Virus record (IMG/VR): IMGVR_UViG_3300035182_002389
Location: 138,519-202,518 of that record
From: a virus
Taxonomy: Duplodnaviria > Caudoviricetes
Strand: one strand, 5' to 3'
Length of the DNA: 64,000 nt
A program made the translations under genes and the position numbers. Positions 203 to 58,281 of the stretch are shown piece after piece. The notes beneath the pieces were generated by a model that was not told the origin of the DNA, did not search any database, and saw only the letters and a program-made list of their open reading frames with translations. Position 1 is the stretch's first letter. The number at the start of each line of letters is the position of its first letter.

Positions 203-1192
203 ATGGGCCCTCTTCCTATCATTCTCGGCGGCGGCGCTGTGCTCCTTGCGCTCGCGTTCGGCAAGAAGTCCTCGGTTGCGTCGCTGACCAGCAACCCTCA
301 GCCGACCCCCTACACGCCGCCGAACATCCTCCCGCCGGGGCCCACGCCGCCGAAGCCAGTCCCTCCCCAGGATTTGCCCATGGGCACTTCCGGCGGCGCG
401 AGCAAGGCCGAGATCACCTGCTTGCAGACGCAGCTCAGCATGCTCCGGTCGCCCGACGGCGCCGGATACAACACGGGCGGCATCGACGGCGTCTGGACGA
501 GCGGAACGTCCTCCGCGCTCGCGAAGTTCCAGAAAGATGCCGGCCTGCCGGTCACCGGAAGCATCGACGCGGCGACCCGATCGGCCGAAGCCTTCGCCAT
601 GTGCTTCTCGGCCAGCGCGCCGCAGCCTTCGAGCGGCCCCGACATGACCGGCGGCGCCACCGCGTACCAAATCCGCTGCCTCCAAAGCGCTCTGAACAAC
701 CGCTACAACGATCAGAACGTCAAGGAAGACGGTCTCTGGTCAAGCGCGCTCGGCACCGTCGTCTCTCGCGCGCAAACCGACGCGGGGCAGGCCGTCACCG
801 GCCGCATCACCCCCGAGCTGCTCGCGCAAGCCGGATGCTCTGCTGCCGCGCCGACCGTGTATCCGTCGACCTTCGGCGACACCATCGCGTGCGACGTCAA
901 CGGCAACATGCCTGACGCGAAGAAGACGGCGGACCTCAAGGCCGCCATCAACGCGTCGACCAGCGAAGCCGACCTCAACGAGTTCGCGAACTTCTGCCTC
1001 TCGCTCGACAAGCCCTGCACGGGTCTGCACGACTACGCGCTCGCCCGCATCGTCGGGATGCGCGAGAACAAGACCACCGAGCAAGTCCTGCAAGAGCAGC
1101 ACGACGCCGCCGTCGCTGCCGCGCAACAAGCGGGAGGCGTCGTCAAGGACGCTGCTGGCAACGTCATCGACACCTTCAAGAACATGTTCTGA
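203..1192 (+). CDS. Membrane-anchored protein with Pro-rich linker and two PG-binding domains
   Basis: N-terminal helix IILGGGAVLLALAFGKK; CLQTQL..GGIDGVW..SALAKFQKDAGLPVTGSID and CLQSAL..EDGLW..AQTDAGQAVTGRIT. Confidence 0.8.
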   Translation: MGPLPIILGGGAVLLALAFGKKSSVASLTSNPQPTPYTPPNILPPGPTPPKPVPPQDLPMGTSGGASKAEITCLQTQLSMLRSPDGAGYNTGGIDGVWTSGTSSALAKFQKDAGLPVTGSIDAATRSAEAFAMCFSASAPQPSSGPDMTGGATAYQIRCLQSALNNRYNDQNVKEDGLWSSALGTVVSRAQTDAGQAVTGRITPELLAQAGCSAAAPTVYPSTFGDTIACDVNGNMPDAKKTADLKAAINASTSEADLNEFANFCLSLDKPCTGLHDYALARIVGMRENKTTEQVLQEQHDAAVAAAQQAGGVVKDAAGNVIDTFKNMF

Positions 1193-1205
1193 TCGGGAGA
1201 GTGAA

Positions 1206-1433
1206 ATGCGAGTCTCGATCGGAAATCGTGTCGCCCTCGACGTGCAGACCGGCAAGGAGGGCGAGACCCTCCTGCTCCTGCTCACGGTTCAAACCCCGTG
1301 GGGCCCCATCTCCAACGCGACGAGCGTGAGCGCGCAGACGCTTCGCGCCATGCTTGTGTGGCTCCGCTCGAACTACGGCACGCTCGCGTACGATTTCGTT
1401 GCCGCGCGCAGCGGCCTGCTCCGTCGCCGCTGA
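1206..1433 (+). CDS. Hypothetical protein (75 aa)
   Basis: Fills gap between co-oriented genes; GGGAG upstream. Confidence 0.6.
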   Translation: MRVSIGNRVALDVQTGKEGETLLLLLTVQTPWGPISNATSVSAQTLRAMLVWLRSNYGTLAYDFVAARSGLLRRR

Positions 1434-1445
1434 ACCAACATTCCC

Positions 1446-1460
1446 GGCTTACCGCAAGCC
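1446..1460. promoter_or_regulatory. Palindromic operator copy 1, GGCTT-ACCGC-AAGCC
   Basis: Intergenic, 21 nt before ATG 1482. Confidence 0.75.
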
Positions 1461-1481
1461 TTCATCCAAGAAAGCACGATC

Positions 1482-2126
1482 ATGTCGCACACCCGTGAAG
1501 AAGTTCTGACCCGCGCGATGGACGTCAACGCGCAGATGCAGGAAGTCGGCAAACTCGCCTTCTCGCTCTGCTTCGACCTTCAAGGGGCGGTCGCTACGGG
1601 CATGGCAGCCATCGCCAACATGAGCCCGACGCTCACCGAGGTCGCCGCCGTTCAGGCCTCGTTGCTCGGCGACATGATCCCGCAAATCGCCGTCAGCGTT
1701 CGGCGATGCAAGTCGCTGAACACGGTTCAGGCCGGCGGCGACGCCGCTTTCGTCTCGAAGTTCACGTCGCTGCTCGCGCGCTGGAAGCTCTTCACCCGCC
1801 GCATCCAGGTGTTCAACCTCTTCGGCCAAGGTCCCGACAGCGCGTGGGACACCGTCGGCGTCTACGAGAACATCCTCGCGAAGTATCGCCAGGAAGTGCA
1901 GCTCCTCGCGCCGACGACCGTGGCCAACATCGTCGAGCAGGAGGCGACGCCTCCGAACGTCCTGCCCGAGCCCGTCGACGCGAGCGCGGCTCCTTCGACC
2001 CAGATCGTCGCAGGCGCCGCAGGCGCAAGTGTGCCGGTCGCCGGCACGCCGTGGGCTCTCATCGGCGGCGCGGCCATCGGCGGCGCAGCGCTCACCTATC
2101 TGCTGACGAAGCGTTCGTCCCGATAG
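1482..2126 (+). CDS. C-terminally anchored membrane protein, paralog 1 of tandem triplet
   Basis: HTREEV.., FTRRIQVFNLFGQGPDSAW motif; C-terminal WALIGGAAIGGAALTYLLTKR. Confidence 0.8.
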   Translation: MSHTREEVLTRAMDVNAQMQEVGKLAFSLCFDLQGAVATGMAAIANMSPTLTEVAAVQASLLGDMIPQIAVSVRRCKSLNTVQAGGDAAFVSKFTSLLARWKLFTRRIQVFNLFGQGPDSAWDTVGVYENILAKYRQEVQLLAPTTVANIVEQEATPPNVLPEPVDASAAPSTQIVAGAAGASVPVAGTPWALIGGAAIGGAALTYLLTKRSSR

Positions 2127-2166: not shown

Positions 2167-2883
2167 ATGCCTTTGCTCGACACCCACTCGCGTGAAGAGG
2201 TCCGCGCCAAAGCGGCGAACGTCGACGCCTCGATGAAGGAGTTCGAGAAGATCGTCCTCTCGCGGATGGCCTTCGACCCGAGCGCCATCGGTTCGGCGGT
2301 CAATGCCGCGCTCGCTCCCGACGCTCCCAACGCCGGCGAGTCCGCCAGCATCCTCGCTGCCAACCTCTCCGATACGGCGCCGTACATCGGCCCCTCCGTT
2401 CAACGCCGCGCCACCATCAGCGCTGCCCAGGCGACCAAGGAGACCGACTTCGCCACGAAGTTCATGGCCTTCTACGCGCGATGGAGCCTCTTCTACAAGC
2501 GCATCCAAGGGTTCGATCTCTTCGGGCCGTCCCCCGACGCCGCGTGGAAGATCGTGACCGACTACGAGACGAACCTCGGCACCTACAAGCAGGAAGCCGC
2601 GCAGATCATGGCCGCGTCGGCCGCTACGCCCGGCCCTGTGTTCGGGCCGCCCATCAACCCGACTCCGGTCGTTCCCGGCCAACCTGCACTGCCGGGGCAG
2701 CCTGCGACGCCCGCGCTCCCCGGGGCAGGGCCCGCCCTGTCCTCGGGCATCCCGTCGTGGCTCCTCATCGGCGGCGTGGCTGTCGGCGGCGTCCTGCTCG
2801 CCCACTACCTGACCAAGTCGAAGGGGCCGACCAGCGGCCAGTCCCTGCCTTCCGCGAGCTTCGCGAGCTACCGAGGCCGGTAG
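2167..2883 (+). CDS. C-terminally anchored membrane protein, paralog 2 of triplet
   Basis: HSREEV.., FYKRIQGFDLFGPSPDAAW; TM WLLIGGVAVGGVLLAHYLTK. Confidence 0.8.
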   Translation: MPLLDTHSREEVRAKAANVDASMKEFEKIVLSRMAFDPSAIGSAVNAALAPDAPNAGESASILAANLSDTAPYIGPSVQRRATISAAQATKETDFATKFMAFYARWSLFYKRIQGFDLFGPSPDAAWKIVTDYETNLGTYKQEAAQIMAASAATPGPVFGPPINPTPVVPGQPALPGQPATPALPGAGPALSSGIPSWLLIGGVAVGGVLLAHYLTKSKGPTSGQSLPSASFASYRGR

Positions 2884-2927: not shown

Positions 2928-3662
2928 ATGGCCGACTATCAGAACGCGCTCTTCAACACCCACGAACGCGGAGAGGTGAGGGCGCGAGCGTCGACCGTCG
3001 ATGCGGCGATCTCGACCTACAATCGAGACCTGCTCGCGCAGATCGCGTTCGATGCGGCCGACGTCGGAACGAACCTCTCAAAGTACCTCACGAACGATCT
3101 CGGCGCGTCCGACGGCGAAGCTTCGCTCATCGTGGAAGAGAGCGTCGCCGTCGCCGCTCCCTTCCTCGTGCACGCAGGACAGCGCGTCGCCATCGTCCCG
3201 GTCGACACCGCACAGAGCGAGAAGACCTTCTACCAGGGATGGTCGAAGTTCTACGGCAAGTGGAAGCTCTTCTTCACGCGCATCCAAAGCTTCAGCCTGC
3301 TCGGCCCGTCCCCCGACGACGCCTGGAACATGCTCATGCAGTTCGAGACCGATTTTGCCGCGTGGAAGAAGCAGGGCGAGACCCTGCTCCACGTCAAATC
3401 GACGGCCCCCGACGTTCCCGCTCTCCCGCAGCCGGATCCGGGCGCCGTCGAGAAGTTCGGCTCCTCCGTCGAGTCGGTCGCGAAGACGGTCCTGCTCTAC
3501 GGCGCGCTCGCGGGCGGCGGGTTCCTTCTCTACAAGTACCTCTCCTCGCGTGTCGAGGAGCGCAACATCGGCCTTGGCGAACGACGCGCTGGCGGCTCCA
3601 TGGGCGGCTCGATGATCGGGTCTGCCGAGCCCTACGGCTACCTTCCTTCAGGCCGGCGCTGA
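2928..3662 (+). CDS. C-terminally anchored membrane protein, paralog 3 of triplet
   Basis: GAGGAG RBS before ATG 2928; HERGEV.., FFTRIQSFSLLGPSPDDAW; TM VLLYGALAGGGFLLYKY. Confidence 0.8.
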   Translation: MADYQNALFNTHERGEVRARASTVDAAISTYNRDLLAQIAFDAADVGTNLSKYLTNDLGASDGEASLIVEESVAVAAPFLVHAGQRVAIVPVDTAQSEKTFYQGWSKFYGKWKLFFTRIQSFSLLGPSPDDAWNMLMQFETDFAAWKKQGETLLHVKSTAPDVPALPQPDPGAVEKFGSSVESVAKTVLLYGALAGGGFLLYKYLSSRVEERNIGLGERRAGGSMGGSMIGSAEPYGYLPSGRR

Positions 3663-3739: not shown

Positions 3740-4561
3740 ATGCTGCCAATCCTTGCCGCTGTTGGAGCTTGGGAAGGGGCCTGGTGGCTCCGTCGCCGCA
3801 ACGCGCGCACGTCGATGTACGCGGAGGCCGCTGCCAAAGCGCGCCAGCTCGGCAAACCGTTGCTCGTCATCGGCGCGCCCGACGGGGGCGTCACGGCGGG
3901 CTACGGATGCGGAGACGTCACCATCGACCTGCAAGAGTCCTCGTGCCCCGTCAGCATCAAGGCCGACATCACGAAGACGCTCCCGTTCGACGACAACTCC
4001 GCGGTCGTGTTCGTGTCCTGCGTCCTCGAATACGTGAACGACGCCGAAGCGGCCATGCGCGAGCTTCGCCGTGTCGCAGGGCCGAACCTCTACATGGTTC
4101 GTGTCGAGCCGTGGACGCTCACGGCCTACCTCTACCCAGGCGCTCAGCGCACCTTCCCACGAAACGTCACCCCCGAGTCTGAGGCCGCCGTGCTCAAGCT
4201 CCGACCTTCCGGCCACGCTCTTCTCCGCCGCCACAACGAAACACTCGCGCCCTCGCGCGAAGGCCCGACTGCCATCGTGCGCACGGGCGCCGTCGCCGAC
4301 CCTTCCGCGCCCGCCCCCGGGTTCAACTGGATGCTCGCGCTCGGCGCCCTCGGAGCCATCGGCGTCGCGCTCTACATCGTGAAGAAGAGCGGCGAGAAGG
4401 TCGAGGTCACGCACCGCCAGGCTTCGTACGAAGACCTTTGGAGCGATGCGACGCGTGCGACGCGCGACCCGCAGCGCGCCAAGAAACAGAAATCTCGCCT
4501 CGAAGCGTGGGAAGCGCGCAAGGCGATGAGCGCCATCGCGCGCCGAGAGAACGAGTGGTGA
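3740..4561 (+). CDS. Class I SAM-dependent methyltransferase-like protein with N- and C-terminal hydrophobic segments
   Basis: LLVIGAPDGG, DITKTLPFDDNSAVVFVSCVLEYVNDAEAAMRELRRV resembles Methyltransf_11 core; TM WMLALGALGAIGVALYIVKK. Confidence 0.6.
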   Translation: MLPILAAVGAWEGAWWLRRRNARTSMYAEAAAKARQLGKPLLVIGAPDGGVTAGYGCGDVTIDLQESSCPVSIKADITKTLPFDDNSAVVFVSCVLEYVNDAEAAMRELRRVAGPNLYMVRVEPWTLTAYLYPGAQRTFPRNVTPESEAAVLKLRPSGHALLRRHNETLAPSREGPTAIVRTGAVADPSAPAPGFNWMLALGALGAIGVALYIVKKSGEKVEVTHRQASYEDLWSDATRATRDPQRAKKQKSRLEAWEARKAMSAIARRENEW

Positions 4562-6133: not shown

Positions 6134-6721
6134 ATGAGTTCCAAGCTCCCGTACATCCTCGGCGGCGCCGCGGTCCTCGGCATCGGCTACTTCCTCTACA
6201 AGAAGAGCCAGACGCCTACCGCAACCGGAGCAAAGAGCACCGCGGGAACGCCGCAGGGATCTGCTGGCACGCCGCAGGGAGCCGCCGGAACACCGCAAGG
6301 GCCTGCCGCTCCAGAGCCGACAAGACCGATTCTCGTGAGGAGCCCGGGGCCGCTCAACACGAACGCCATTCGTCTTCGCCCGGAACTCTTCGCGACGCAG
6401 CCCGAGCCGGCGCCTCAGCCGGAGCCCCAGCCCAAGCCAGAGCCGGAGCCACAGCCCAAGCCAGAGCCGGAGCCTCAGCCCCAAGAGCCGGTCGACACCG
6501 CCGATCTGGACGCGTGCTCTCAGGCCGTGGAAGACATCTCCAACAGCACCCTGCGGATGGCGGTCAAAGCCGGAATTTCTCAGGCTGCCAAACTTGGCGG
6601 TCCCAAGGGAGCTTCGGAGCTTCAGACGGCGATCTCCGCGCTTCGGATGGCCGCGTTCCTCGACGACTCCATGACCGACATCGCAGACTGCTTGCAAGCG
6701 GCGGCCGACAAGATGAAGTAA
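6134..6721 (+). CDS. N-anchored membrane protein with GTPQG and EPQP/EPEP repeats
   Basis: YILGGAAVLGIGYFLYKK; Pro/Glu/Gln stalk at ~6398-6490; helical C-terminal domain with 2 Cys. Confidence 0.8.
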   Translation: MSSKLPYILGGAAVLGIGYFLYKKSQTPTATGAKSTAGTPQGSAGTPQGAAGTPQGPAAPEPTRPILVRSPGPLNTNAIRLRPELFATQPEPAPQPEPQPKPEPEPQPKPEPEPQPQEPVDTADLDACSQAVEDISNSTLRMAVKAGISQAAKLGGPKGASELQTAISALRMAAFLDDSMTDIADCLQAAADKMK

Positions 6722-7469: not shown

Positions 7470-7727
7470 ATGTCGCCCCGCCCCATCCTTTCTCGCCGCG
7501 CCATCACCGGCGCCGTCACCACCGACGTCGCGGCTGCCGCCGCCGCAGCCGCGCCGCCCGTCGCGCCCGCGCCCATCGTCACCACCGAGCCGTCCACCGG
7601 GCAGAAGATCGTCGGCACCGCAGGCGCGGCCGTCGGCCTCGCGGGCATCGGCGCCATGCTGCTCATCCCCGTCGCCGTGCTCGCGCTCATCGGCACCGGC
7701 GCCTACTACCTCTACAAGAAGGCCTGA
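7470..7727 (+). CDS. Small membrane protein with RPxL...TGA leader
   Basis: MSPRPILSRRAITGA; long TM ending GAYYLYKKA. Confidence 0.75.
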   Translation: MSPRPILSRRAITGAVTTDVAAAAAAAAPPVAPAPIVTTEPSTGQKIVGTAGAAVGLAGIGAMLLIPVAVLALIGTGAYYLYKKA

Positions 7728-7730: not shown

Positions 7731-7931
7731 GTGATCGGGCGAGCGCTGCTTTCAAGGCGCGCTACGGTCGGCGCTGAATCTGCCACGCCCGCCACGCCGC
7801 AGGCTGCGAGCAGCGCGGTCTTGTGGACGTCGGCCATTACGCCCATCGCCGTTCTCGCGATCGCGGGCGGCATCGCCTACTACATCGTCAAGAGCGAGCC
7901 GGATCGTCGCGCGGGACACACGCTCTTCTAG
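7731..7931 (+). CDS. Small membrane protein with RALL...VGA leader
   Basis: MIGRALLSRRATVGA; TM ending GGIAYYIVK. Confidence 0.7.
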   Translation: MIGRALLSRRATVGAESATPATPQAASSAVLWTSAITPIAVLAIAGGIAYYIVKSEPDRRAGHTLF

Positions 7932-7943: not shown

Positions 7944-9098
7944 ATGAATCTCGACCAAAAGCTTCGCGTCCTCGTTGCTGGGGATTCCATCGTCGCGGGC
8001 TATCCGACGACCTCCGGGTTTCGCAAGAAGCTGCGCGAGTCGCTGCCGGAGAGCGTCGTCGAGTTCGTGGGGCCGAACGTCGACGCGGCCGGGCTCAGGC
8101 ACGGCGGCTATCATGGGCACCCATCAAAGAGCCTCGTCAAAAAGCTCCCAGAGCTGCTCGCTGATCGCCCCGACATCGCCATCATCATGGTGGGGGGCAA
8201 CGGCATCCCCGATACGACCCCCGAGGACGTGGGCCAAGAGGTTTCAGCCCTCGCCAAAGGTCTCGTCGACGGAGGCGTGCGCGTCGTCTACGTCTCGAAG
8301 ATTGCCGACGTCTCCCTCTTCAGCGAGCACGTGCGCGCCTACAACGAGCAGATCGCGCTTCAGTGCCTGCTGCCGAACGTGCACGTCATCGACATTGGCG
8401 GCGCAGTCGGTCCTGCCGATCGTGGATCGCCGTACTACGCTGACGACTGCCATCCGAACGAACTCGGATACGATCGCATGGCCGACGTTCCGCTCGCTCA
8501 GGTTTTCGGGCAAACCCCGCAGCCCATCACACGCGTTGGCGCGAGCGGTGAAAGCCCGACCTCACTCCTTCAGAGAGCCGACCAAGAACTGAAGTCTGCG
8601 TACCCCGAGATGACCTCGGAGATGCGCGCCGTCTTCATCAAGTCGTGCCACGAAATCACAGGCCTCGGCCAGTCGGGCGATTGGGCTCCGTTCGGTGTCG
8701 CGTCCAACAACGTCGGCGCCATCGTCTATCGCCCAGGCCACGACGCGACCTACTTCATGGGCCGCGACGGCGTGAAGTACGCGAAATACCCGACGCTCAA
8801 GGAAGGCCTTATCGCCGCTGTCGAAGCTTACGAGCACATCATCTCGCCCGACGTGCCCGAGCGACCGTCCTTTCGCCGTCCGGTGCTCACGCGCCCCTAC
8901 CCGGAAGCGACGGCGAACTTCAACCTGCACGGCGGCAAGCCCATCCTCCGCATCAGCGTTCGAGGTTCCTCGGACGCAGAGCCCACCGGCAACCCCTTCT
9001 CCTACGCCAACCTCGGCGTTCTCGTCATCGCAGGCGCCCTGTTCGCGGGCACGCTCGCGCTTCGACCCGGGCACAACGCGCCTCCGAGCCACCGATGA
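7944..9098 (+). CDS. SGNH/GDSL esterase fused to GH73-like glucosaminidase domain, C-terminal TM
   Basis: AGDS, VGGNG, DDCHP SGNH blocks; then HEITGLGQS..SNNVGAI..YAKYPTLKEG; TM LGVLVIAGALFAGTLALR. Confidence 0.7.
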   Translation: MNLDQKLRVLVAGDSIVAGYPTTSGFRKKLRESLPESVVEFVGPNVDAAGLRHGGYHGHPSKSLVKKLPELLADRPDIAIIMVGGNGIPDTTPEDVGQEVSALAKGLVDGGVRVVYVSKIADVSLFSEHVRAYNEQIALQCLLPNVHVIDIGGAVGPADRGSPYYADDCHPNELGYDRMADVPLAQVFGQTPQPITRVGASGESPTSLLQRADQELKSAYPEMTSEMRAVFIKSCHEITGLGQSGDWAPFGVASNNVGAIVYRPGHDATYFMGRDGVKYAKYPTLKEGLIAAVEAYEHIISPDVPERPSFRRPVLTRPYPEATANFNLHGGKPILRISVRGSSDAEPTGNPFSYANLGVLVIAGALFAGTLALRPGHNAPPSHR

Positions 9099-11576: not shown

Positions 11577-11765
11577 ATGCTCACCGTGCAGGGGCTCCTC
11601 GACGAGACCAAGCGCTATCGTGCAACCACGGCCACGGGCGCGACCATCGAAGAGGAGACCGCCAAGACGGCCATCTCCTCCGCTCTGCCGCTCATCGCTC
11701 TCGGAGGCCTGCTGCTCGTCGGTCTCTACGCGGCCAGCGCGCCGTCTGCGACCCGCCCACGCTGA
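11577..11765 (+). CDS. Small membrane protein
   Basis: ..ATGATIEE..; TM LPLIALGGLLLVGLYAA. Confidence 0.65.
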   Translation: MLTVQGLLDETKRYRATTATGATIEEETAKTAISSALPLIALGGLLLVGLYAASAPSATRPR

Positions 11766-45526: not shown

Positions 45527-48109
45527 ATGCTCATTCGCGTTCGCCACATCCCCATCACGCCGTACGCCATGCTTCCCGCAGGAGCTGCCGTCGGGGTTTA
45601 CATCCCCGGCGTCAGCGAAATCGGTCACGCGCTGGAGAAGGGGTACAACGCTGCAAAAAGCGCACTCAATAAAATCGGCGACGCATTCGAGAGCGCCGGC
45701 AAATGGATCGGGGAGAACGTTGGGGCCGGAGGCAAGTGGCTCTGGGAACACGACCCGATCATGCAGCTCGGGTACAAGATCGCGAAGGGCGAAAACGTCT
45801 GGCAAGCGCTCAAGGAGGTCGGCGCCATCATCGGCGAAGACATCCGCATCTTCGGGCCCTACCTCGCCTACATCCCCGGCGTCGGAACGGCGGCGGCGAT
45901 GGCCATCGCGGCAGGCCTTGCGCTCGCCAACGGCAAGAGCCTCACCGAGATCGCCATCGAGACCATGCGCGGAGCCATTCCGCCAGGGCCGTTCCAGACC
46001 GCATTCGATACCGCCAACGCGCTCCTCCACGGCAAGAGCATCACGGACGCCGCACTCGAAGCGCTCCACAAGGAGTATCCGGCGGCCTACGACGTCGCAA
46101 AAGCGGCCATCGACGTCGCCAAGGGCGGCAGCATCACCGAAGCTGCGCTCTCGGCCCTCCGCGACCAGTTGCCGCCCGAAGCGCAAGGGGCCCTGGACGC
46201 AGGCATCGCCATCGCGAAGGGCAAGCGCGTCCAAGACGCTCTGCTCGACGGCATCCGCACGGCCCTGCCGCCCGACTATCAGGAAGCCTTCGACGTTGCC
46301 CGCGACGTCGCCAACGGCAAGAACATCGTCGACGTCGCGATCGCCGAAGCCAAGAGGCAACTGCCTCCCGAAGCGCAGGCGTACGCGGACGTCGCCATCG
46401 CGCTGATCAAGGGCGCGAAGGTTTCCGACGTTCTCATTCAGGCCGCGCGCGCCGCCATTCCCGCCGAATACCTCAAGTATTTCGACATGGCGATGAATCT
46501 CAAGAGCGTCGACGCATCCGCCGTCATCGCCGCTGTCAAGGCGCAAGTTCCTGCGAACACGCCCATCGATCAGGTCTACGCCATCGCGAAGAACTTGCAG
46601 ACGACGGGCGCTGCAACCGGAGGCGTGCGCGCGGTTGTTCGCGGAAACTCCATCGCGTTCGAGGCCAGACCACACATCGCGCTCGGAGGCCTCTTTCCGA
46701 CCCGTCCGCCGCAGTACCGACAAGTGTCCGTCGGCGCAGGGGCCATCGTCAACGCTGCCCTCAACGTCGCGATCGAAGAGCTGCGCCAACGGCTCCCCAG
46801 CGAACCTGCCGCGCAGGCTGCGTTCCAAGCCGCCGTCGATCTCGTCAAGGGAAAGAGCCTCGAAGACGTCGCCATCGAGGTCTCCAAGAGCTTCGTCCCG
46901 CAAGAATACCAAGACGCATACGGCAAGGCTGCAAAGGTCGCCGACGACGTCATTCACGGTGCCAACCTCGGCGACGTTGGCATGGACGCAATCCGCGCCA
47001 ACCTCCCCGATGGAGCTGCCGGATACGCCGATCTCGCACTTCGCTTCGTTCAAGGCGAAAAATCAACCGATGCGGCGCTGGCTGCCGCTCGCCTGCTCCT
47101 CCCCGCAAACGCGCAAGGCGCATTCGATCTCGCCATGAGCCTCGCCAGCCAGAGCGCGAGCTTCCGGCAAGCGGCCATCGACGCCGTCAAGGCTGCCATG
47201 ACCCCAGGCCAAGACCTCAACACGGCCTTCGACCAGGCCGTCTCGCTCGCGAAGGACCAGATCCCACAAAGCTTCATCGACGATCTCAAAACGAAGGCGG
47301 CCATCGGAGACGAACTCAAGGCCGCTTTCGATCAGGTCATCGAACTTGCCAAGGGAAAGGCCATTCAGAGCATCGCGACCGAGATCGTGAAGGGATACAT
47401 CCCCGACGATTTCAAGGCCTCATACCAAAAGGTCGCGGATTTTGCGAACCAAGCGCCCACGAGCGACGCTGCGCTCAACGTCTTTCGACAGAAAGTGTCT
47501 CCAGCCGGACAACACGTCGTCGACAGCGCCACCGCTTTGTTCAAGGGAGCGGCGCCAGAGAACATCGCCAACGACGCCGTGGTCCAGGATGTCGTTGCAC
47601 GGGTCGTCGCCTACCAGAAGAGCGCCGCTGCCTACCAAAAGGTCGCCGCACCCAGAACGGCCGTTCCTGCCCCGATCCTCGCCCGCGTGACAAGGCTTCG
47701 GTCCAACATGCTCGCCTCCGTCAACGGAACGTCTGATCCGGCGTCCGACCCTCTGCGGTCCCCAGACTTGATCGTCGTCGTTGCACCCGGCGAAGAAGAC
47801 TGGACCGCATACAACCAGGCTCTCGAAGACATTGCTCGACGACGGGCCGCGCTCGGCCAGTCCAACCCGTACCTCGGATCGCCCATCGATCCAGATTTTC
47901 AGAAAGCGATCGACGCCAAAACTGCGCAATACCAGGCGGAGATGGCTCCCAAGATCAACGCGCGCCGTTTTCTTCGTCTCGAAGGCGCAGTCGAAGAATC
48001 GGCCGAGGGCGCAACTAAGGGCAAGAGCACGATCAAAACCGTCGCCCTCGTCGCCGGCGGAGGAGCCCTCGCCTACTATTTGATCAGGCGCCGCAGGCAC
48101 GCTCCCTAG
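45527..48109 (+). CDS. 860-aa alpha-helical repeat protein with C-terminal membrane anchor
   Basis: ~15 units of ~32-33 aa (GKSITDAALEAL..LPP..QxAFDxAxxxxK); TM VALVAGGGALAYYLIRRRR. Confidence 0.8.
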   Translation: MLIRVRHIPITPYAMLPAGAAVGVYIPGVSEIGHALEKGYNAAKSALNKIGDAFESAGKWIGENVGAGGKWLWEHDPIMQLGYKIAKGENVWQALKEVGAIIGEDIRIFGPYLAYIPGVGTAAAMAIAAGLALANGKSLTEIAIETMRGAIPPGPFQTAFDTANALLHGKSITDAALEALHKEYPAAYDVAKAAIDVAKGGSITEAALSALRDQLPPEAQGALDAGIAIAKGKRVQDALLDGIRTALPPDYQEAFDVARDVANGKNIVDVAIAEAKRQLPPEAQAYADVAIALIKGAKVSDVLIQAARAAIPAEYLKYFDMAMNLKSVDASAVIAAVKAQVPANTPIDQVYAIAKNLQTTGAATGGVRAVVRGNSIAFEARPHIALGGLFPTRPPQYRQVSVGAGAIVNAALNVAIEELRQRLPSEPAAQAAFQAAVDLVKGKSLEDVAIEVSKSFVPQEYQDAYGKAAKVADDVIHGANLGDVGMDAIRANLPDGAAGYADLALRFVQGEKSTDAALAAARLLLPANAQGAFDLAMSLASQSASFRQAAIDAVKAAMTPGQDLNTAFDQAVSLAKDQIPQSFIDDLKTKAAIGDELKAAFDQVIELAKGKAIQSIATEIVKGYIPDDFKASYQKVADFANQAPTSDAALNVFRQKVSPAGQHVVDSATALFKGAAPENIANDAVVQDVVARVVAYQKSAAAYQKVAAPRTAVPAPILARVTRLRSNMLASVNGTSDPASDPLRSPDLIVVVAPGEEDWTAYNQALEDIARRRAALGQSNPYLGSPIDPDFQKAIDAKTAQYQAEMAPKINARRFLRLEGAVEESAEGATKGKSTIKTVALVAGGGALAYYLIRRRRHAP

Positions 48110-50969: not shown

Positions 50970-52019
50970 ATGGACTCGAAGACTCCCTACATCATCGGCG
51001 GCCTGGCCGTGCTCGGCGTCGGCGCCTACTTCCTGCTCCGCAAGACCCCGGTCACCGCTGCGGCGACTCCGGGAACTACCGCGCTGCCCGCCGGTGGAAC
51101 TCCCGTCGCCGGAACGCCCGCCACGACCGTCCCGCAGGCCATGCCTGCCGGGTGGCCGACCAGCATTCCGTGGCCGCCGCCCGGCCTGCCCGCCGGCACG
51201 GCGCTGCCGACCGCCAAGCCTGCATGGTGGCCCGCCGGCATCACCTACCCGCCGACCGTTCCGACGAACGTCTCGAACGTCCCGAGCAGCCTGCCCGGCA
51301 CCACGACGTCTCCCCAGCCGCCGGCCGAAGCCAAGTTCAACCGCCTCGGCGCGACCCCCGATCAGGAGGCGCAGGCCAAGCAGAACATGTGGCACGTGCT
51401 TCAGATGGTCGCGCTTGCCGACGCAACCGCGAATCCTGCCACGCTCGACGCGACGCACACCGTCGGCCTCGGTTCGAGCGACCCGAGCGGCACCTCCGCA
51501 GCGCAGAGCATCGCAATGCTCAACGACGCTCTCAACGGCGGCGGACAGTACGTCCTCATCAGCGTTCCCCCGACCGACGGATCGGGCAACGCCATGCCTC
51601 CGACCTTCCTGTTCACGAACCTCGAAGGCGCCATGTCTTCCGGTCTCGGCGCGGGCGTCGGCGGCCCGTGGACGCTCTTCCTCACCCCGAACGAGTGGCG
51701 CACCGTCGAAGCCGCCGTCGTCGCACAGGGAGCGCCTCCCGCCGTTCCGACTCTTCCGCAGAGCGCTCCGACGGGGTGGCCGGCGGGCGTCGCATGGCCC
51801 CCGACCGGATGGACCCCGGGGCAGCCCGTTCCCTCGACGGCTCCCTCGGGCTGGCCGGCCAGCATCCCCTGGCCTCCGACCTCCGCGAGCATCCCGGGAT
51901 TCACCCCGCCCGCCGGAACGCCCCAGATCCCGCCCAGCATCCCGACCGATCCGACGCAGTACGCCGCCTACATCGCCCAGCTCAAGGCCATGGGCCTCCC
52001 GGTCCCTCCCGGCGCCTGA
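50970..52019 (+). CDS. N-anchored membrane protein with GWP..WPP repeats flanking a globular domain
   Basis: AGGAG RBS; YIIGGLAVLGVGAYFLLRK; QYVLIS; WTLFLTPNEWRTV. Confidence 0.8.
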   Translation: MDSKTPYIIGGLAVLGVGAYFLLRKTPVTAAATPGTTALPAGGTPVAGTPATTVPQAMPAGWPTSIPWPPPGLPAGTALPTAKPAWWPAGITYPPTVPTNVSNVPSSLPGTTTSPQPPAEAKFNRLGATPDQEAQAKQNMWHVLQMVALADATANPATLDATHTVGLGSSDPSGTSAAQSIAMLNDALNGGGQYVLISVPPTDGSGNAMPPTFLFTNLEGAMSSGLGAGVGGPWTLFLTPNEWRTVEAAVVAQGAPPAVPTLPQSAPTGWPAGVAWPPTGWTPGQPVPSTAPSGWPASIPWPPTSASIPGFTPPAGTPQIPPSIPTDPTQYAAYIAQLKAMGLPVPPGA

Positions 52020-52080: not shown

Positions 52081-52115
52081 TGATGCTGCGGGGTTCGCCC
52101 GCCAAGAGAAACCTC

Positions 52116-52727
52116 ATGGCCGACAGCTTCGAGTCCATCCCAGCATCCGCCCGCAAGGAAGCGTCGAACACGCTGCTCTACGTTTTGCTCGGCGGCGCCG
52201 CTCTTGCCGGCGTCGCTTGGTTTCTCACGAAGAAAGAACCGCCGCTCGTTGCTGGGCCGGACAACCAAACCAGACCGCTGCCGCCGCCTTCCGTGCCAGC
52301 GCCGCCAAGCGTTCCCGAGATGACCAACGCCGAGAAGGTGTTGCTCTGGCGGCAGCTCGCCTCTGCGCAGCTCGAAAACGGATCTGCTCCGAACACGACC
52401 AACATCATCGGGCGAACGCCCGCGTCCAACGAAGCGACCACCTCCGCGCTTCGCGACATCGTCTACCGAAATCGATCCGTCGCCGAAACTACGGCGGATG
52501 CGCAAACCGTCACGATGTCGGCGCCGAACCTTGCGCCTGCTGCGGCCCAGCCTGGCAAATACGTTCTTGTCTCCTTGAACGGACTCGTCTTGTGGTTCGC
52601 CACCCTCGACGAAATCAAGAACGAAGTGCTCACGGCATCGAAGAACTACCGGATCTTTCTCAAGCCTGACGAATGGAGCACTGTTCAGGCTCTCGCTGGC
52701 GCCCCGTACGCGGCGGTCCTCCCATGA
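52116..52727 (+). CDS. N-anchored membrane protein, paralog of 50970 globular domain
   Basis: LLYVLLGGAALAGVAWFLTKK; KYVLVS; YRIFLKPDEWSTV. Confidence 0.75.
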   Translation: MADSFESIPASARKEASNTLLYVLLGGAALAGVAWFLTKKEPPLVAGPDNQTRPLPPPSVPAPPSVPEMTNAEKVLLWRQLASAQLENGSAPNTTNIIGRTPASNEATTSALRDIVYRNRSVAETTADAQTVTMSAPNLAPAAAQPGKYVLVSLNGLVLWFATLDEIKNEVLTASKNYRIFLKPDEWSTVQALAGAPYAAVLP

Positions 52728-55654: not shown

Positions 55655-55930
55655 ATGTTCGACTACAACCCGCACGTCTTCACCGGAGCCGAAACGACCG
55701 CCACGGGCCCGACGCAGCCCGGTCTCACCACGCCTCCGGGCACGCCCCCGTCGACGTTCTTCAGCGACAACAAATACTACATCATCGGCGGCGTGGCCGT
55801 CGTCGGCGTGGCCGCGTACATGCTGATGGCCAAGAAGGGCGACAAATCCATCTCGGGCTCCGACTCCAGCGTCGGCGGCTACCATCGCGACAGCTACGCC
55901 GGCATCCAGCACGCCGCCCGTCGACGCTAG
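55655..55930 (+). CDS. Small membrane protein
   Basis: YYIIGGVAVVGVAAYMLMAKK. Confidence 0.75.
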   Translation: MFDYNPHVFTGAETTATGPTQPGLTTPPGTPPSTFFSDNKYYIIGGVAVVGVAAYMLMAKKGDKSISGSDSSVGGYHRDSYAGIQHAARRR

Positions 55931-56293: not shown

Positions 56294-56301
56294 GGAGACC
56301 G

Positions 56302-56526
56302 ATGACGCGTAAGCATGCCATGAAACACAGCGCGGCCAGCATCGCGACGAGCGCCGATCTCGACCCCGATGATCGTCTCGGCATCGAGCTGAGCCACGCC
56401 ATCATGCGCGTCCTCTCTCAACACTCACGCGTCGGGCAAGCTCACGCCGATCGCGTCTCGCGAGCCGCCTCTCGATACGTCCTCAAATCGCTCAAAGAAG
56501 CGGGCAAGTCCTCCGTCCCGTTCTGA
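56302..56526 (+). CDS. Hypothetical protein (74 aa)
   Basis: GAGGAG RBS. Confidence 0.65.
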   Translation: MTRKHAMKHSAASIATSADLDPDDRLGIELSHAIMRVLSQHSRVGQAHADRVSRAASRYVLKSLKEAGKSSVPF

Positions 56527-56533
56527 GGTCAGC

Positions 56534-57136
56534 ATGGCGTCCAGGAAGTTCAACGCGAAAGAAGCCAGGAGCATCGGAACGTCGATCGGCGTCGACTTCC
56601 AGAAGTTCAGCCTCGACGAGTTCCGAAAGGGTCTCAGCGCGGAGCTGGAACACAAGGACGTCACCAAGGGCAATCTCTCCATCACCGGCAAGATCGCGAT
56701 GGCCCACCTACGCGAAATGCCGGACTACTACACGAAGCTCGATCTCATGGAACGAGGGGCGTGCTGCCCTTGCTCGCCGCTCCACAAAAAGCTCCAGCGC
56801 ATCGAAAAGAAAACCGGCTCCGCGCCGAAGACAAGCTCAAAAAAGCATGTCGCACCAGCAGCCGTCGCACGCGTTGCTCGACGCGCTCTCGAATGGCGGC
56901 GTGAGTTCAAGCGCGGAGGAACCGCCATCGGCGTGCGTCGAGCTGTGCAGCTTGCGGACCGACAAAACTTGTCGGACGACACCGTTCGGCGCATGAAGGC
57001 GTACTTCGCCAGACATGCCGTAGACAAGAAGGCCAAAGGGTTTCGGGAAGGCGAACAAGGATTCCCTTCCGCCGGCCGCGTTGCGTGGGACCTGTGGGGA
57101 GGCGATCTCGGGCGTACGTGGGTACGGGGGCTTTGA
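56534..57136 (+). CDS. DUF5661-like domain fused to a phage-associated RGGT..YFARH..AWDLWGGD domain
   Basis: EFRKGLSAELEH..GKIAMAHLREMPDYYTKL; LSDDTVRRMKAYFARH..PSAGRVAWDLWGGD. Confidence 0.7.
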   Translation: MASRKFNAKEARSIGTSIGVDFQKFSLDEFRKGLSAELEHKDVTKGNLSITGKIAMAHLREMPDYYTKLDLMERGACCPCSPLHKKLQRIEKKTGSAPKTSSKKHVAPAAVARVARRALEWRREFKRGGTAIGVRRAVQLADRQNLSDDTVRRMKAYFARHAVDKKAKGFREGEQGFPSAGRVAWDLWGGDLGRTWVRGL

Positions 57137-57153
57137 GGCCGGCCCAGGACCCC

Positions 57154-58281
57154 TCAACGAATCGACGACGAAGGACGTGAAAGGAAATACGCCACGGCCG
57201 CACCGGCGAGCATTGCTCCGCCGGCCATGAGGACCTTCGTCGACGTCGATGTCGAGGCTCCACCGCCGGCATCCATGACGAAAGGTTCGGGGTCAGGGCC
57301 CTGCACGTAGTCTGTGCGACCTTCGACGCCCGGCGGGTTTGACGCCGGATCGGGGATCGCCACGCCGTCGGAACCCGTCACGTAGCTCACTCTCTTCGCT
57401 CCGCTCGTCCCCGACATGGGAGGGGGCATCAGCGTCTTCTTCGACCCGTTGTTGAGCACCGGCAGAGCGTTCGTTCCCGCGTTGGGGAACCGAGGGTTGA
57501 ACGGCCCGTCGTCCGAAACGAGCACGTGCAGCTTCGGATGCAAGCACACCTCGTCGAACGAAAACGGAACGCCGTTGACCGACACCTGCCAATAGACGAG
57601 GTCGCAACCGTGCGAGTAGTCCTCGTAACCAGCTTCGTGAAATGACCAGTCCCACGGCTGGATCTGCGAGCCGTTCGGCCAAAACCAGCCACCGAACGCC
57701 ATGTTCTTGCCGTCCAGGTTCGGCCTCGTGATGTACGCCTTCTTCGTTCGCGTGAACGCGCTGTAGTTCGCGCCGAAGATGACGCCGGCCTTCGCGAGAG
57801 CTTCGTTGACCCGCTCGTTCTCTTTCGCAATGACCGACGTTGCGAGCCCAGGATGGCAAATGCCGAGAGGATTCTTCTCGGTCTTCTCACAGGGCCTGGA
57901 GAGGGCCTGCGGATCGATTTTGAACGACGTCGACTGCCACGTGTTCTTCACGATCTTCTTCGACGGAATGTAGAACTTCGAGGTTCGGTCCGTTGGATCT
58001 GAAGCGCTCACGAGCATTCGAGCGTCGCAAAACGATTGCAGACTTGGCTGTATGAGCGGCCATCGAACGAAGTCCTCGTTCGTGCCGATCGACAAGTAGT
58101 CGGGCGGCGTTAGGTACGTCAGCTCGTAGTCACCTCCGTCGATGACCGCAGACGTTCGGCACGTCTGAAGATGCTCCATGAACTCCGGCGTATTGCCGGC
58201 GAGCATCGTGGAGAGCGCAAGCGCATCGCGCTTCGGATCGCTCATGTCCCAGACAAGCTTCAGGAACTCGGAGCCCTTCAT
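57154..58281 (-). CDS. Membrane-anchored HxxxYxDYSHGC protein, paralog of 21859
   Basis: MLAGNTPE, YLSIGTNED, KKAYIT, HEAGYEDYSHGCD, VCLHPKLHVLVSD; TM LMAGGAMLAGAAVAYFLSR; TG-G-TAGGCT 7 nt upstream. Confidence 0.8.
   Translation of the reverse strand: MKGSEFLKLVWDMSDPKRDALALSTMLAGNTPEFMEHLQTCRTSAVIDGGDYELTYLTPPDYLSIGTNEDFVRWPLIQPSLQSFCDARMLVSASDPTDRTSKFYIPSKKIVKNTWQSTSFKIDPQALSRPCEKTEKNPLGICHPGLATSVIAKENERVNEALAKAGVIFGANYSAFTRTKKAYITRPNLDGKNMAFGGWFWPNGSQIQPWDWSFHEAGYEDYSHGCDLVYWQVSVNGVPFSFDEVCLHPKLHVLVSDDGPFNPRFPNAGTNALPVLNNGSKKTLMPPPMSGTSGAKRVSYVTGSDGVAIPDPASNPPGVEGRTDYVQGPDPEPFVMDAGGGASTSTSTKVLMAGGAMLAGAAVAYFLSRPSSSIR

What the first reader, a model, noticed from the sequence alone, without database searches (positions are those of the whole stretch)
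203..58281. About 35-40 single-pass membrane proteins share one Gly-rich anchor signature
Seen: anchors such as YILGGAAVLGIGYFLYKK (6134), LLLGGTAAIGGYLLYTK (20767), YIIGGLAVLGVGAYFLLRK (50970), YYIIGGVAVVGVAAYMLMAKK (55655), WALIGGAAIGGAALTYLLTKR (1482), VAGGGALAYYLIRRRR (45527). Pattern: aliphatic-GG-small-GxxxG-aromatic-basic, used at either terminus of unrelated domains. Inference: a common sorting or oligomerisation tag that recruits cargo into a virion membrane or a virus-built membrane domain.
Basis: partly seen in the sequence, partly recalled or inferred. Interest (0 to 1): 0.78.

Follow-up and report, generated by a model that had tools for sequence, protein, structure and literature searches.

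The report
Glycine-rich anchors of viral membrane proteins
A 200-kb uncultured bacterial virus puts the same style of short, glycine-rich membrane anchor on about 45 otherwise unrelated proteins, and this style matches known particle-membrane proteins of tailless phages such as PRD1 and P23-77, so the virus may carry a lipid membrane.

Summary
The window is the last 64 kb of a 202.5-kb viral contig (64% GC, probable Myxococcota host). A scoring matrix built from the anchors finds 27 in the window and 45 in the genome. 43 of the 45 lie in the late half. All are in coding frames. Density is 3.5 per 10 kb, against 0.07 in 554 kb of bacterial DNA and 0.09 in 215 kb of tailed-phage DNA. A related virus has 4.8.

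The anchor is an 18-20-residue helix with a Leu-rich start, a central GG cluster, a Tyr/Trp/Phe belt and then Lys/Arg. It sits at the N-terminus (about two thirds) or the C-terminus. Cargo includes peptidoglycan-binding, lytic transglycosylase, GDSL and lectin domains.

GxxxG is depleted and small residues form no helical face. Anchors share about 20% identity. This is a physicochemical style, not one copied tag or a glycine zipper.

The matrix also picks out PRD1 P11 and P16 and P23-77 VP20, VP22 and VP23. The genome has a protein-primed polymerase and no detectable terminase, portal or HK97 capsid. No capsid protein or packaging ATPase was found either.

Best reading (about 0.55): Sec-independent anchors of virion-membrane proteins.

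The parts
209..274 (+). N-terminal anchor of gene 203-1192 (329 aa; two PG_binding_1 repeats)
   Evidence: PSSM 29.1. Pfam PG_binding_1 1.1e-17.
2055..2120 (+). C-terminal anchor of gene 1482-2126 (214 aa)
   Evidence: PSSM 30.1. No N-terminal hydrophobic run. Paralogue of gene 2167-2883.
2761..2826 (+). C-terminal anchor of gene 2167-2883 (238 aa)
   Evidence: PSSM 23.6.
3480..3545 (+). C-proximal anchor of a newly called ORF, about 2928-3662 (244 aa)
   Evidence: PSSM 21.9. The ORF was read.
4325..4390 (+). Internal or C-proximal anchor of a newly called ORF, about 4055-4561 (168 aa)
   Evidence: PSSM 21.9. The start codon is uncertain.
6146..6211 (+). N-terminal anchor of gene 6134-6721 (195 aa)
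   Evidence: PSSM 38.7. Paralogue of gene 50922-52019.
7659..7724 (+). C-terminal anchor of gene 7362-7727 (121 aa)
   Evidence: PSSM 13.9.
7836..7901 (+). Anchor of a newly called small ORF, 7731-7931 (66 aa)
   Evidence: PSSM 21.3.
9009..9074 (+). C-terminal anchor of gene 7944-9098 (384 aa; GDSL/SGNH hydrolase)
   Evidence: PSSM 17.4, but only 4.7 in the leave-one-out test, so this is a weak member. Lipase_GDSL_2 5.5e-15.
11685..11750 (+). Anchor of gene 11577-11765 (62 aa)
   Evidence: PSSM 18.5.
12991..13056 (+). Anchor of a newly called ORF, 12895-13134 (79 aa), paralogue of the next gene
   Evidence: PSSM 17.5.
13231..13296 (+). N-proximal anchor of gene 13138-13686 (182 aa)
   Evidence: PSSM 19.6.
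13845..13910 (+). N-proximal anchor of gene 13734-14315 (193 aa)
   Evidence: PSSM 40.0.
14969..15034 (+). C-terminal anchor of gene 14333-15055 (240 aa; SLT lytic transglycosylase)
   Evidence: PSSM 28.4. SLT 2.1e-10. tblastn to PRD1 P7, 7e-5. Same domain order as PRD1 P7.
15477..15542 (+). N-terminal anchor of gene 15459-16079 (206 aa; GDSL/SGNH hydrolase)
   Evidence: PSSM 21.5. Lipase_GDSL_2 2.1e-10.
17172..17237 (+). N-terminal anchor of gene 17160-17630 (156 aa)
   Evidence: PSSM 28.5.
19415..19480 (+). N-proximal anchor of gene 19343-19831 (162 aa)
   Evidence: PSSM 19.2. The orthologue in the relative (58% identity) keeps the anchor.
20779..20844 (+). N-terminal anchor of gene 20767-21336 (189 aa)
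   Evidence: PSSM 34.1.
21345..21410 (+). N-terminal anchor of a newly called ORF, 21333-21851 (172 aa, GTG start)
   Evidence: PSSM 16.5.
22882..22947 (+). C-terminal anchor of gene 21859-22974 (371 aa; cell-wall-associated domain family)
   Evidence: PSSM 36.3. Homologues are either tail-anchored or carry a signal peptide.
23009..23074 (+). N-terminal anchor of a newly called ORF, 22997-23638 (213 aa)
   Evidence: PSSM 25.3.
28165..28230 (+). Anchor of gene 28099-28287 (62 aa)
   Evidence: PSSM 16.9, but only 2.5 in the leave-one-out test, so this is a weak member.
48032..48097 (+). C-terminal anchor of gene 45527-48109 (860 aa; helical repeat protein)
   Evidence: PSSM 24.7. The 934-aa orthologue in the relative keeps a C-terminal anchor scoring 21.1.
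50985..51050 (+). N-proximal anchor of gene 50922-52019 (365 aa)
   Evidence: PSSM 32.5.
52176..52241 (+). N-proximal anchor of gene 52038-52727 (229 aa)
   Evidence: PSSM 34.7. Paralogue of three anchored genes just upstream of the window.
55778..55843 (+). Anchor of gene 55655-55930 (91 aa)
   Evidence: PSSM 24.9.
57166..57231 (-). C-terminal anchor of gene 57154-58281 (375 aa, minus strand), paralogue of gene 21859-22974
   Evidence: PSSM 24.5. Paralogy shown.

Best explanation
The segments are membrane anchors of one physicochemical class. About 45 late proteins of this virus use them to attach to a lipid bilayer while the folded domain stays on the cytoplasmic side.

Each anchor is an 18-20-residue, moderately hydrophobic helix. 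It has a Leu/Ile/Val-rich start, a cluster of glycines in the middle third, Tyr/Trp/Phe in the last third, and a Lys-rich clamp directly after.

Inferred from the positive-inside rule:
- N-terminal copies are N-out/C-in signal anchors, like Pf3 coat protein.
- C-terminal copies are tail anchors.
- Neither kind needs the Sec pathway.
- Both leave cargo (peptidoglycan-binding, lytic transglycosylase, SGNH/GDSL, lectin and other domains) on the cytoplasmic face of the host inner membrane.

Further inference, by analogy with PRD1: this protein-loaded membrane is taken into the particle as a viral membrane, and the wall-degrading cargo is carried along for use at entry.

The shared features reflect selection for this insertion route and for life in a crowded viral membrane. 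They do not reflect a specific peptide tag or GxxxG-driven pairing.
For: Shown by computation:
- There are 45 anchors, 43 of them in the late half of the genome, all in coding frames.
- Leave-one-out enrichment is 26/161 late proteins against 1/390 host-like proteins and 0/124 early proteins.
- A relative at about 55-65% protein identity has 4.8 anchors per 10 kb, mostly on proteins with no detectable similarity to this genome. Orthologues keep the anchor style but not the sequence.
- Helix length is uniform (median 19 residues, IQR 18-20). K/R lies within 3 residues after the helix in 44/45. K:R is 69:33 although the proteome has more R than K.
- Compared with host-like single hydrophobic segments: Tyr in the last five residues 51% against 5%; GG 57% against 24%; charge bias reversed relative to host signal peptides.
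- Cargo is PG_binding_1, SLT, two GDSL domains and B_lectin.
- C-terminal-class proteins have no N-terminal hydrophobic run.
- In the family of gene 21859-22974, 41 homologues are tail-anchored, 31 have an N-terminal signal-like segment and only 2 have both.
- The matrix scores PRD1 P11 and P16 and P23-77 VP20, VP22 and VP23. It hits membrane phages at 1.3 per 10 kb against 0.09 in tailed phages, p = 2e-5.
- Gene 14333-15055 has the SLT-plus-C-terminal-helix layout of PRD1 P7 and weak sequence similarity to it.
- The genome has a protein-primed polymerase (PF03175, 92 bits).
- No terminase, portal or HK97 capsid family is found in six frames or in the Pfam and PHROG scans of larger proteins.

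From the literature:
- PRD1 membrane proteins are first inserted into the host membrane, and a patch is then pinched off (PMC6356626).
- P16 is a virion membrane protein with a transmembrane helix.
- P7/P14 and P32 are single-pass proteins.
- Proteins fill about half of the PRD1 membrane volume (PMC3782422).
Against: - No double or single jelly-roll major capsid protein and no FtsK/HerA-type packaging ATPase was found. The only late P-loop protein (gene 28319-29446) looks like RadA/KaiC/DnaB.
- The two candidates I folded are not capsid proteins. Gene 36781-38280 is a tandem ConA/GH16-like lectin. Gene 39876-40712 has a generic jelly-roll, and a homologue sits in a myovirus tail module.
- Receptor-binding and spike genes are shared with tailed phages.
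- The contig has no terminal repeats and may lack genes.
- Only one true relative could be sampled.
- The membrane-phage comparison rests on five small genomes, two of them related.
- Topology is inferred from charge rules only.
- Transmembrane calls come from a hydropathy heuristic, not a trained predictor.
Confidence: 0.55

Rival explanations
1. The virus is a tailed jumbo phage whose head, tail and packaging genes are too divergent to detect or lie off the contig. The anchored proteins are non-structural. They sit in the host inner membrane during infection, for example for envelope remodelling, superinfection exclusion or control of lysis.
For: - Spike, lectin and peptidase genes have homologues in tailed phages and prophages.
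- Nine paralogues share a spike-adaptor-like N-terminal domain, as in multi-tailspike phages.
- The contig is linear without terminal repeats.
- No capsid protein of any kind was identified.
Against: - Four terminase families, the portal family and the HK97 capsid family give no hit at E <= 1 in six frames.
- PHROG scans give no head, tail or packaging hit except one false 'portal', which is a Nudix domain.
- The anchor is nearly absent from 215 kb of tailed-phage DNA, including a Myxococcus phage and a 66% GC jumbo phage.
- Cargo acting on the cell wall would be held on the wrong side of the membrane.
Confidence: 0.22
2. The anchor is a dedicated address tag. A specific viral factor reads it, or the anchors pair with each other, to recruit cargo into the viral membrane.
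For: - The same polarity of the motif is kept at either terminus.
- Lys and Tyr are preferred against the genome's compositional bias.
- The style is kept in a relative on proteins that are otherwise unrecognisable.
- Helix length is strikingly uniform.
Against: - Mean pairwise identity is 20%.
- Codon sharing at identical residues equals the codon-usage expectation, 0.517 against 0.521.
- GxxxG is depleted and the small-residue helical moment is below shuffles.
- No Gly-zipper Pfam family and no CTERM sorting family matches.
- Similar anchors occur in unrelated small phages.
Confidence: 0.15
3. The anchors are signal-anchor-release (SAR)-like domains. They hold wall-degrading enzymes in the membrane until lysis and then release them.
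For: - The helices are Gly/Ala-rich and only moderately hydrophobic, with mean hydropathy 1.9.
- Several cargo domains act on peptidoglycan.
Against: - The charge bias is the opposite of SAR endolysins, with 2.3 K/R after the helix against 0.9 before.
- A third of the anchors are C-terminal.
- Most cargo is not muralytic.
- About 45 copies is far beyond any lysis cassette.
- A free GH25 muramidase (gene 17637-18635) is also present.
Confidence: 0.05
4. The pattern is a by-product of high G+C content: Gly, Ala, Leu and Val are favoured in any hydrophobic segment.
For: The genome is 64% GC, and Gly and Ala have GC-rich codons.
Against: - A 68% GC Myxococcota chromosome sample has 0.10 hits per 10 kb.
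- The virus's own early half has 0.25.
- High-GC tailed phages have almost none.
- Lys and Tyr (AT-rich codons) are enriched.
- No off-frame hits occur.
Confidence: 0.02

Closest known systems
PRD1 (Tectiviridae) virion membrane proteins P11, P16, P7/P14 and P32
   Same: - Short terminal single-pass helices followed by basic residues.
- P11 and P16 score 21.4 and 20.4 with the matrix built from this virus.
- P7 has the SLT-domain-plus-C-terminal-helix layout of gene 14333-15055 and weak sequence similarity to it.
- PRD1 also has a protein-primed polymerase.
   Different: - PRD1 is 15 kb with about ten membrane proteins. This genome is about 200 kb with about 45.
- Most PRD1 helices (P7, P32, P34, P20, P22) score low.
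- No homologue of the P3 capsid protein or the P9 ATPase was found here.
Thermus phages P23-77 and IN93 (Matshushitaviridae): small structural proteins VP20, VP22 and VP23
   Same: - High-GC internal-membrane phages.
- VP22 scores 29.4, the best match outside the clade. VP23 scores 17.8 and VP20 14.9.
- IN93 gives four hits.
- Their transglycosylase also carries a terminal helix.
   Different: - These are 17-20-kb genomes with two single jelly-roll capsid proteins and an ATPase that have no detectable counterpart here.
- That VP20, VP22 and VP23 are membrane-associated is from my own knowledge. The record only calls them structural proteins.
Pf3 and M13 coat-type N-out/C-in anchors and bacterial tail-anchored proteins (YidC-dependent insertion)
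   Same: A very short N-tail or extreme C-terminal position, a moderately hydrophobic Gly-containing helix, a basic cluster after the helix and no Sec signal. These features are compared with those proteins from my own knowledge.
   Different: Here the anchor carries large folded cargo of up to 860 aa. Dependence on YidC is untested.
Transmembrane glycine zippers and GxxxG dimerisation motifs
   Same: The helices are Gly- and Ala-rich.
   Different: GxxxG is depleted (z = -2.5), the triple small-xxx-small pattern is not enriched, and there is no small-residue face. No Gly-zipper Pfam family is hit.
SAR (signal-anchor-release) domains of phage endolysins and pinholins
   Same: N-terminal Gly/Ala-rich, weakly hydrophobic helices on muralytic cargo.
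   Different: The charge polarity is opposite. The anchors also occur at C-termini and on non-lytic cargo, and there are tens of copies.

Membership tests
Virion-membrane protein anchors of internal-membrane phages (PRD1, P23-77 type) | Terminal single-pass helix with a basic clamp, resembling known virion membrane proteins | tested here: met
   Matrix scores: PRD1 P11 21.4, P16 20.4; P23-77 VP22 29.4, VP23 17.8, VP20 14.9. Membrane phages have 12 hits in 91 kb against 2 in 215 kb for tailed phages, p = 2e-5.
Virion-membrane protein anchors of internal-membrane phages (PRD1, P23-77 type) | Proteins and lipid present in purified particles | not testable with these tools
   The virus is uncultured. 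Only DNA runs from microbial mat and sediment were found.
Internal-membrane tailless phages (Tectiviridae, Corticoviridae, Helvetiavirae) | Vertical jelly-roll major capsid protein(s) | tested here: inconclusive
   Two candidates were folded. Gene 36781-38280 is a tandem ConA/GH16-like lectin (Z 17-19). Gene 39876-40712 has a generic jelly-roll with TM-scores below 0.3. There is no tblastn hit to capsid genes of PRD1, PM2, P23-77, IN93 or SH1. Other late proteins were not folded.
Internal-membrane tailless phages (Tectiviridae, Corticoviridae, Helvetiavirae) | FtsK/HerA-type packaging ATPase | tested here: not met
   The strict Walker A motif gives nine matches in my gene call. Only three are plausible ATPases: a UvrD helicase, an SMC/ABC-like protein and the RadA/KaiC-like gene 28319-29446. 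None matches P9, ORF13 or ORF17.
Tectiviridae-like replication | Protein-primed family B DNA polymerase | tested here: met
   PF03175 at 92 bits (cut-off 25.8) at genome 39343-39987. tblastn to PRD1 P1, 4e-5. Inverted terminal repeats were not found on the contig.
Caudoviricetes (tailed phages) | Large terminase, portal and HK97-fold capsid protein | tested here: not met
   Terminase_6N, Terminase_6C, TerL_ATPase, Terminase_3, Phage_portal and Phage_capsid give no six-frame hit at E <= 1. PHROG and Pfam scans of the larger proteins show none. The one 'portal' PHROG hit is a Nudix domain. Caveats: the contig may be incomplete, and one search listed only 25 of 39 families.
GxxxG / glycine-zipper association motif | Enrichment of G-x3-G or small-x3-small-x3-small on one helix face | tested here: not met
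   GxxxG 7 against 16 +/- 3.6. Zipper pattern 16 against 21.5 +/- 4.5. Small-residue helical moment 0.197 against 0.280 +/- 0.022 in shuffles.
Sec or lipoprotein signal peptides | Positive n-region before the helix, AxA or lipobox after it, no basic cluster after | tested here: not met
   K/R is 0.9 before and 2.3 after the helix, the reverse of host-like signal peptides at 1.4 before and 0.8 after. The virus does use a classical lipobox signal elsewhere, at genome 102427-102975.
C-terminal sorting signals (GlyGly-CTERM, MYXO-CTERM, PEP-CTERM) | Match to the curated sorting-domain models; strictly C-terminal position | tested here: not met
   NCBIfam gives no such hit at E <= 0.1 for nine C-terminal-class proteins. 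Two thirds of the anchors are N-terminal.
SAR domains | N-in/C-out orientation with the positive charge on the N-terminal side | tested here: not met
   Charge bias is opposite, and nine window anchors are C-terminal.
Tail-anchored membrane proteins (C-terminal class only) | Single helix within about 30 residues of the C-terminus and no N-terminal signal | tested here: met
   The nine window proteins have no second hydrophobic run at the N-terminus. In the family of gene 21859-22974, tail anchors and N-terminal signals are almost mutually exclusive: 41, 31 and 2.

The most novel reading that the evidence does not exclude
The contig represents a roughly 200-kb tailless bacterial virus with a lipid membrane and protein-primed replication. 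Its genome would be about ten times larger than any characterised internal-membrane phage. About 45 particle-membrane proteins would share one anchor style, and a simple scoring matrix of that style could be used to find virion-membrane proteins, and such viruses, in metagenomes.
Probability: 0.45. Interest if true: 0.9.

Novelty: new variant of a known kind. Interest (0 to 1): 0.66.

Why it matters
Membrane-containing phages are few and small, and their membrane proteins have no recognised sequence signature. Here a definable anchor style separates one virus clade and the known internal-membrane phages from tailed phages and from bacterial DNA.

If this holds on larger sets, it gives a sequence-only marker for virion-membrane proteins. 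It also gives a way to recognise large tailless, lipid-containing bacterial viruses that current hallmark-gene tools miss.

The finding also raises a testable cell-biology question. Wall-acting enzymes that cells export through Sec are tail-anchored or N-out anchored in the virus. This implies a Sec-independent route that keeps them on the cytoplasmic face until they are packaged.

Tried and rejected
- Major capsid candidates: gene 39876-40712 (AlphaFold2 pLDDT 83.6) has an N-terminal domain plus a generic jelly-roll with weak, mixed matches. Gene 36781-38280 (pTM 0.78) is a tandem ConA/GH16-like lectin, not a double jelly-roll.
- ESM Atlas look-ups of three proteins gave only leads: a beta-helix spike for gene 42548-44185, nothing for 39876-40712, and a large viral family for 36781-38280.
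- Phage-collection searches: no DNA match and no match for the spike protein. Hits for the ATPase were RadA-like. The 800-aa early protein matches vWA proteins of Ackermannviridae and says nothing about morphology.
- IMG/VR scans with single proteins found nothing. With an alignment they found two unrelated phages without anchors.
- Neighbourhoods of homologues of gene 9502-10281 (L049, L060, L061) are other phage types and share only that gene. They served as extra negative controls.
- Two closer relatives had no DNA on file. The relative's record could not be searched as a whole.
- The PHROG 'portal' hit is a Nudix domain. The 'head decoration' hit lies inside a spike paralogue.
- Rejected readings are the compositional artefact, signal peptides, SAR domains, CTERM sorting signals and the glycine zipper (see the membership tests).

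Full report
**What the window is.** The window is bases 138519-202518 of a 202,518-base IMG/VR viral record. The record is linear, and CheckV estimates it 94% complete. It is 61-68% GC throughout. Markers show it to be a virus of bacteria:
- RtcB, RlaP, sigma-70 region 4, a UvrD helicase and LysM.
- Methyltransferases, HNH endonucleases, SSB, thymidylate synthase and a DNA polymerase in the early half.
- GH25, Nudix and sigma-factor genes in the window.

RtcB is 62-65% identical to proteins of Myxococcales and Polyangiales MAGs, so a Myxococcota host is the best guess. The DNA occurs in microbial-mat and sediment metagenomes, and no RNA run was found.

**Checking the observation.** I called genes by third-position GC and scanned for hydrophobic segments.
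- The quoted anchors are all there.
- From 38 curated segments, aligned without gaps on the first basic residue after the helix, the consensus reads: K/T/S, then Leu-rich, then G-G-(A/G), then Ala/Gly-rich, then Tyr, then Leu/Phe/Tyr, then K-K.
- A 22-column scoring matrix (PSSM) run over all six frames gives 45 hits scoring 13 or more. 43 lie between 81 and 202 kb, and 27 are in the window.
- Every hit is in the frame of a called gene or in an ORF inside a gap of my gene call. Six new window ORFs were recovered this way. No hit falls in an off frame, which is an internal negative control.
- The count for the window is therefore about 27, not 35-40.

**Is it more than chance or composition?** Yes.
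- Leave-one-out scores of 16 bits or more occur in 26 of 161 late proteins and 0 of 124 early proteins. They occur in 1 of 390 proteins from 400 kb of a 68% GC Myxococcota chromosome. Shuffled late proteins give none at 12 bits or more.
- Hits per 10 kb in six frames: late region 3.5, early region 0.25, bacterial DNA 0.07 (4 hits in 554 kb).
- Compared with single hydrophobic segments of the host-like sample, the viral anchors have more GG (57% against 24%) and more often carry three or more Gly (77% against 35%). They have ten times more Tyr in the last five residues (51% against 5%). They prefer Lys over Arg although both proteomes have more Arg.
- The charge bias is reversed. The positive charge lies after the helix, whereas in host signal peptides it lies before.
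- Helix length is very uniform, with median 19 and IQR 18-20.

**What the motif is not.**
- G-x3-G is depleted: 7 observed against 16 +/- 3.6 in shuffles that keep each segment's composition.
- The small-x3-small-x3-small zipper is not enriched.
- The helical moment of small residues is below random.
- What is enriched is adjacent GG (44 against 19.5) and G-x4-G.
- Glycines concentrate in the middle third, aliphatic residues in the first third and aromatic residues in the last third.
- The anchors are not copies. Mean pairwise identity in register is 20%, and the maximum is 68%, between tandem paralogues. Identical residues share codons no more often than codon usage predicts, 0.517 against 0.521.
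- So this is a shared style kept by selection, not a recently spread cassette or a fixed peptide tag.

**Cargo and paralogy.** All-against-all BLAST links only a few anchored proteins to each other. Domains on anchored proteins:
- PG_binding_1 (gene 203-1192).
- An SLT lytic transglycosylase with a C-terminal anchor (gene 14333-15055).
- Two GDSL/SGNH hydrolases, one anchored at each end (genes 7944-9098 and 15459-16079).
- A B_lectin, and a weak glutaredoxin match, upstream of the window.
- An 860-aa helical-repeat protein (gene 45527-48109).

Gene 21859-22974 and its paralogues belong to a family whose cellular members sit next to peptidoglycan hydrolase domains. Among 149 representative homologues, 41 have only a C-terminal tail helix, 31 have only an N-terminal signal-like segment and 2 have both. 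Eleven of the 41 tails score 13 or more with the matrix, and none of the others do. So cells export this domain with a signal peptide, while in this virus and its apparently viral homologues it is tail-anchored.

**Relatives.** One true relative was sampled: a 160,779-base JGI contig, syntenic with this genome, with conserved proteins 40-66% identical.
- Its region matching the start of the window has 10 anchors in 20.8 kb. Most are on proteins with no BLAST similarity to this genome.
- Orthologues of genes 19343-19831, 21859-22974, 57154-58281 and 45527-48109 keep an anchor of the same style but different sequence.
- Other loci that share single genes with this virus have none or one anchor. 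These are a myovirus tail module, a prophage with terminase and portal, two IMG/VR phages and two replication-module contigs.

**Comparison with known phages.** The same matrix was run over reference genomes.
- It scores PRD1 P11 (21.4) and P16 (20.4), and P23-77 VP22 (29.4), VP23 (17.8) and VP20 (14.9). It gives four hits in IN93 and one each in PM2 and SH1. The total is 12 hits in 91 kb.
- Myxococcus phage Mx8, the first 50 kb of the 66% GC jumbo phage phiCbK, phiC31 and four tailed-phage loci give 2 weak hits in 215 kb (p = 2e-5).
- P16 is a virion membrane protein whose transmembrane helix is seen in the PRD1 structure. P7/P14 and P32 are single-pass proteins. Proteins fill about half of the PRD1 membrane (PMC3782422).
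- PRD1 membrane proteins are first inserted into the host membrane, and a patch is then pinched off (PMC6356626).
- Gene 14333-15055 has the layout of PRD1 P7 and weak similarity to it (7e-5).

**What kind of virus?** This is unresolved, but the evidence leans away from a tailed phage.
- In six frames there is no Terminase_6N, Terminase_6C, TerL_ATPase, Terminase_3, Phage_portal or Phage_capsid at E <= 1.
- Pfam and PHROG scans of essentially all late proteins of 130 aa or more, and early proteins of 160 aa or more, show no head, tail or packaging family. The single 'portal' hit is a Nudix domain.
- The polymerase is of the protein-primed type (PF03175, 92 bits), as in tectiviruses.
- A PLD-like protein (6.8e-41) lies in the late region.
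- Four Lys/Ala-rich histone-like proteins lie among the late genes.
- Against the membrane-virus reading, I found no jelly-roll capsid protein and no FtsK/HerA ATPase. The two proteins I folded are lectin-like or generic jelly-roll proteins of the kind used as receptor-binding modules. The contig also has no terminal repeats.

**Mechanism.**
- Shown: the segments form a distinct, conserved, late-gene-specific class of hydrophobic terminal helices with a basic clamp, on unrelated cargo.
- Inferred from the positive-inside rule: N-terminal copies insert N-out/C-in, and C-terminal copies are tail anchors. Neither needs Sec, and the cargo stays on the cytoplasmic face.
- Inferred by analogy with PRD1: that face becomes the capsid-facing side of a viral membrane, which carries wall-binding and wall-cutting enzymes for entry.
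- The central glycines, spread around the helix, would give a thin, flexible waist suited to dense packing or to easy insertion and extraction. This last point is speculation.
- A monotopic hairpin hinged at GG, with both flanks on the same side, is not excluded, since 32 of 45 anchors also have a K/R within six residues before the helix.

**Earlier notes of this scan.** Other first readers of the same genome noted the same anchors and suggested a tailless membrane virus. A follow-up on other DNA described a shared hydrophobic-plus-basic leader on swappable phage cargo. These notes are leads only, and I tested the claims above myself.

**Limits.**
- Transmembrane calls use a hydropathy heuristic.
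- Gene starts are uncertain for several N-proximal anchors.
- The matrix was built from this genome. This is why the leave-one-out scores, the relative and the reference phages carry the weight.
- The reference set is small and includes related pairs.

Noticed in passing
genome 39343-39987 (about 98.5 kb before the window start; locus L010/L011): A protein-primed family B DNA polymerase (PF03175, 92 bits), also weakly similar to PRD1 P1. This is unusual for a roughly 200-kb bacterial virus.
   Followed up: partly
window 26082-28028 and 54436-55119: Four Lys/Ala-rich, histone H1-like proteins (206, 78, 330 and 227 aa) lie among the late genes. They may condense DNA.
   Followed up: no
window 42548-44185 and genome 83-86 kb, 129-134 kb: Nine paralogues share a roughly 100-aa N-terminal domain joined to different C-terminal parts. 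The window copy looks like a beta-helix spike, which is an Atlas lead only.
   Followed up: partly
window 36781-38280 and 38311-39819: Tandem paralogues (about 500 aa) fold as two ConA/GH16-like lectin domains. The family has hundreds of homologues of very constant length in viral contigs and carries no Pfam name.
   Followed up: yes
window 9502-10281: A 259-aa protein with Cys/His motifs has more than 3,300 homologues at 50-67% identity and no Pfam family. It moves between unrelated phage contexts, including a prophage where it lies about 6 kb upstream of the terminase and portal genes.
   Followed up: partly
window 24276-24770 and 24825-25733: Two adjacent coiled-coil paralogues share a conserved C-terminal block. 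They look like scaffold proteins but have no family match.
   Followed up: no
genome 8853-32388 (early region): An RNA-repair set: an 800-aa vWA protein of the kind annotated as 'von Willebrand factor type A domain protein' in Ackermannviridae phage records, RtcB, and an 868-aa RlaP-domain protein.
   Followed up: partly
genome 81-138 kb (probably 92572-93519, minus strand): A PLD-like protein (PLDc_2, 6.8e-41) lies in the late region. It could be a lipid-modifying enzyme or a nuclease. I guessed the gene coordinates and did not map the hit.
   Followed up: no
genome 102427-102975 (minus strand): One late protein has a classical lipoprotein signal (Leu-Thr-Ser-Cys lipobox after a positive n-region). 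This shows the virus uses normal export signals where needed.
   Followed up: no
genome 1-25: The contig begins with a run of about 20 C. This may be an assembly or library artefact, or a real end. There is no similarity between the two contig ends on either strand.
   Followed up: partly
window 45527-48109: The 860-aa anchored protein is built of about 35-residue helical repeats (pattern A..A..GK...D.A..A.R..LP). The orthologue in the relative is 934 aa.
   Followed up: no
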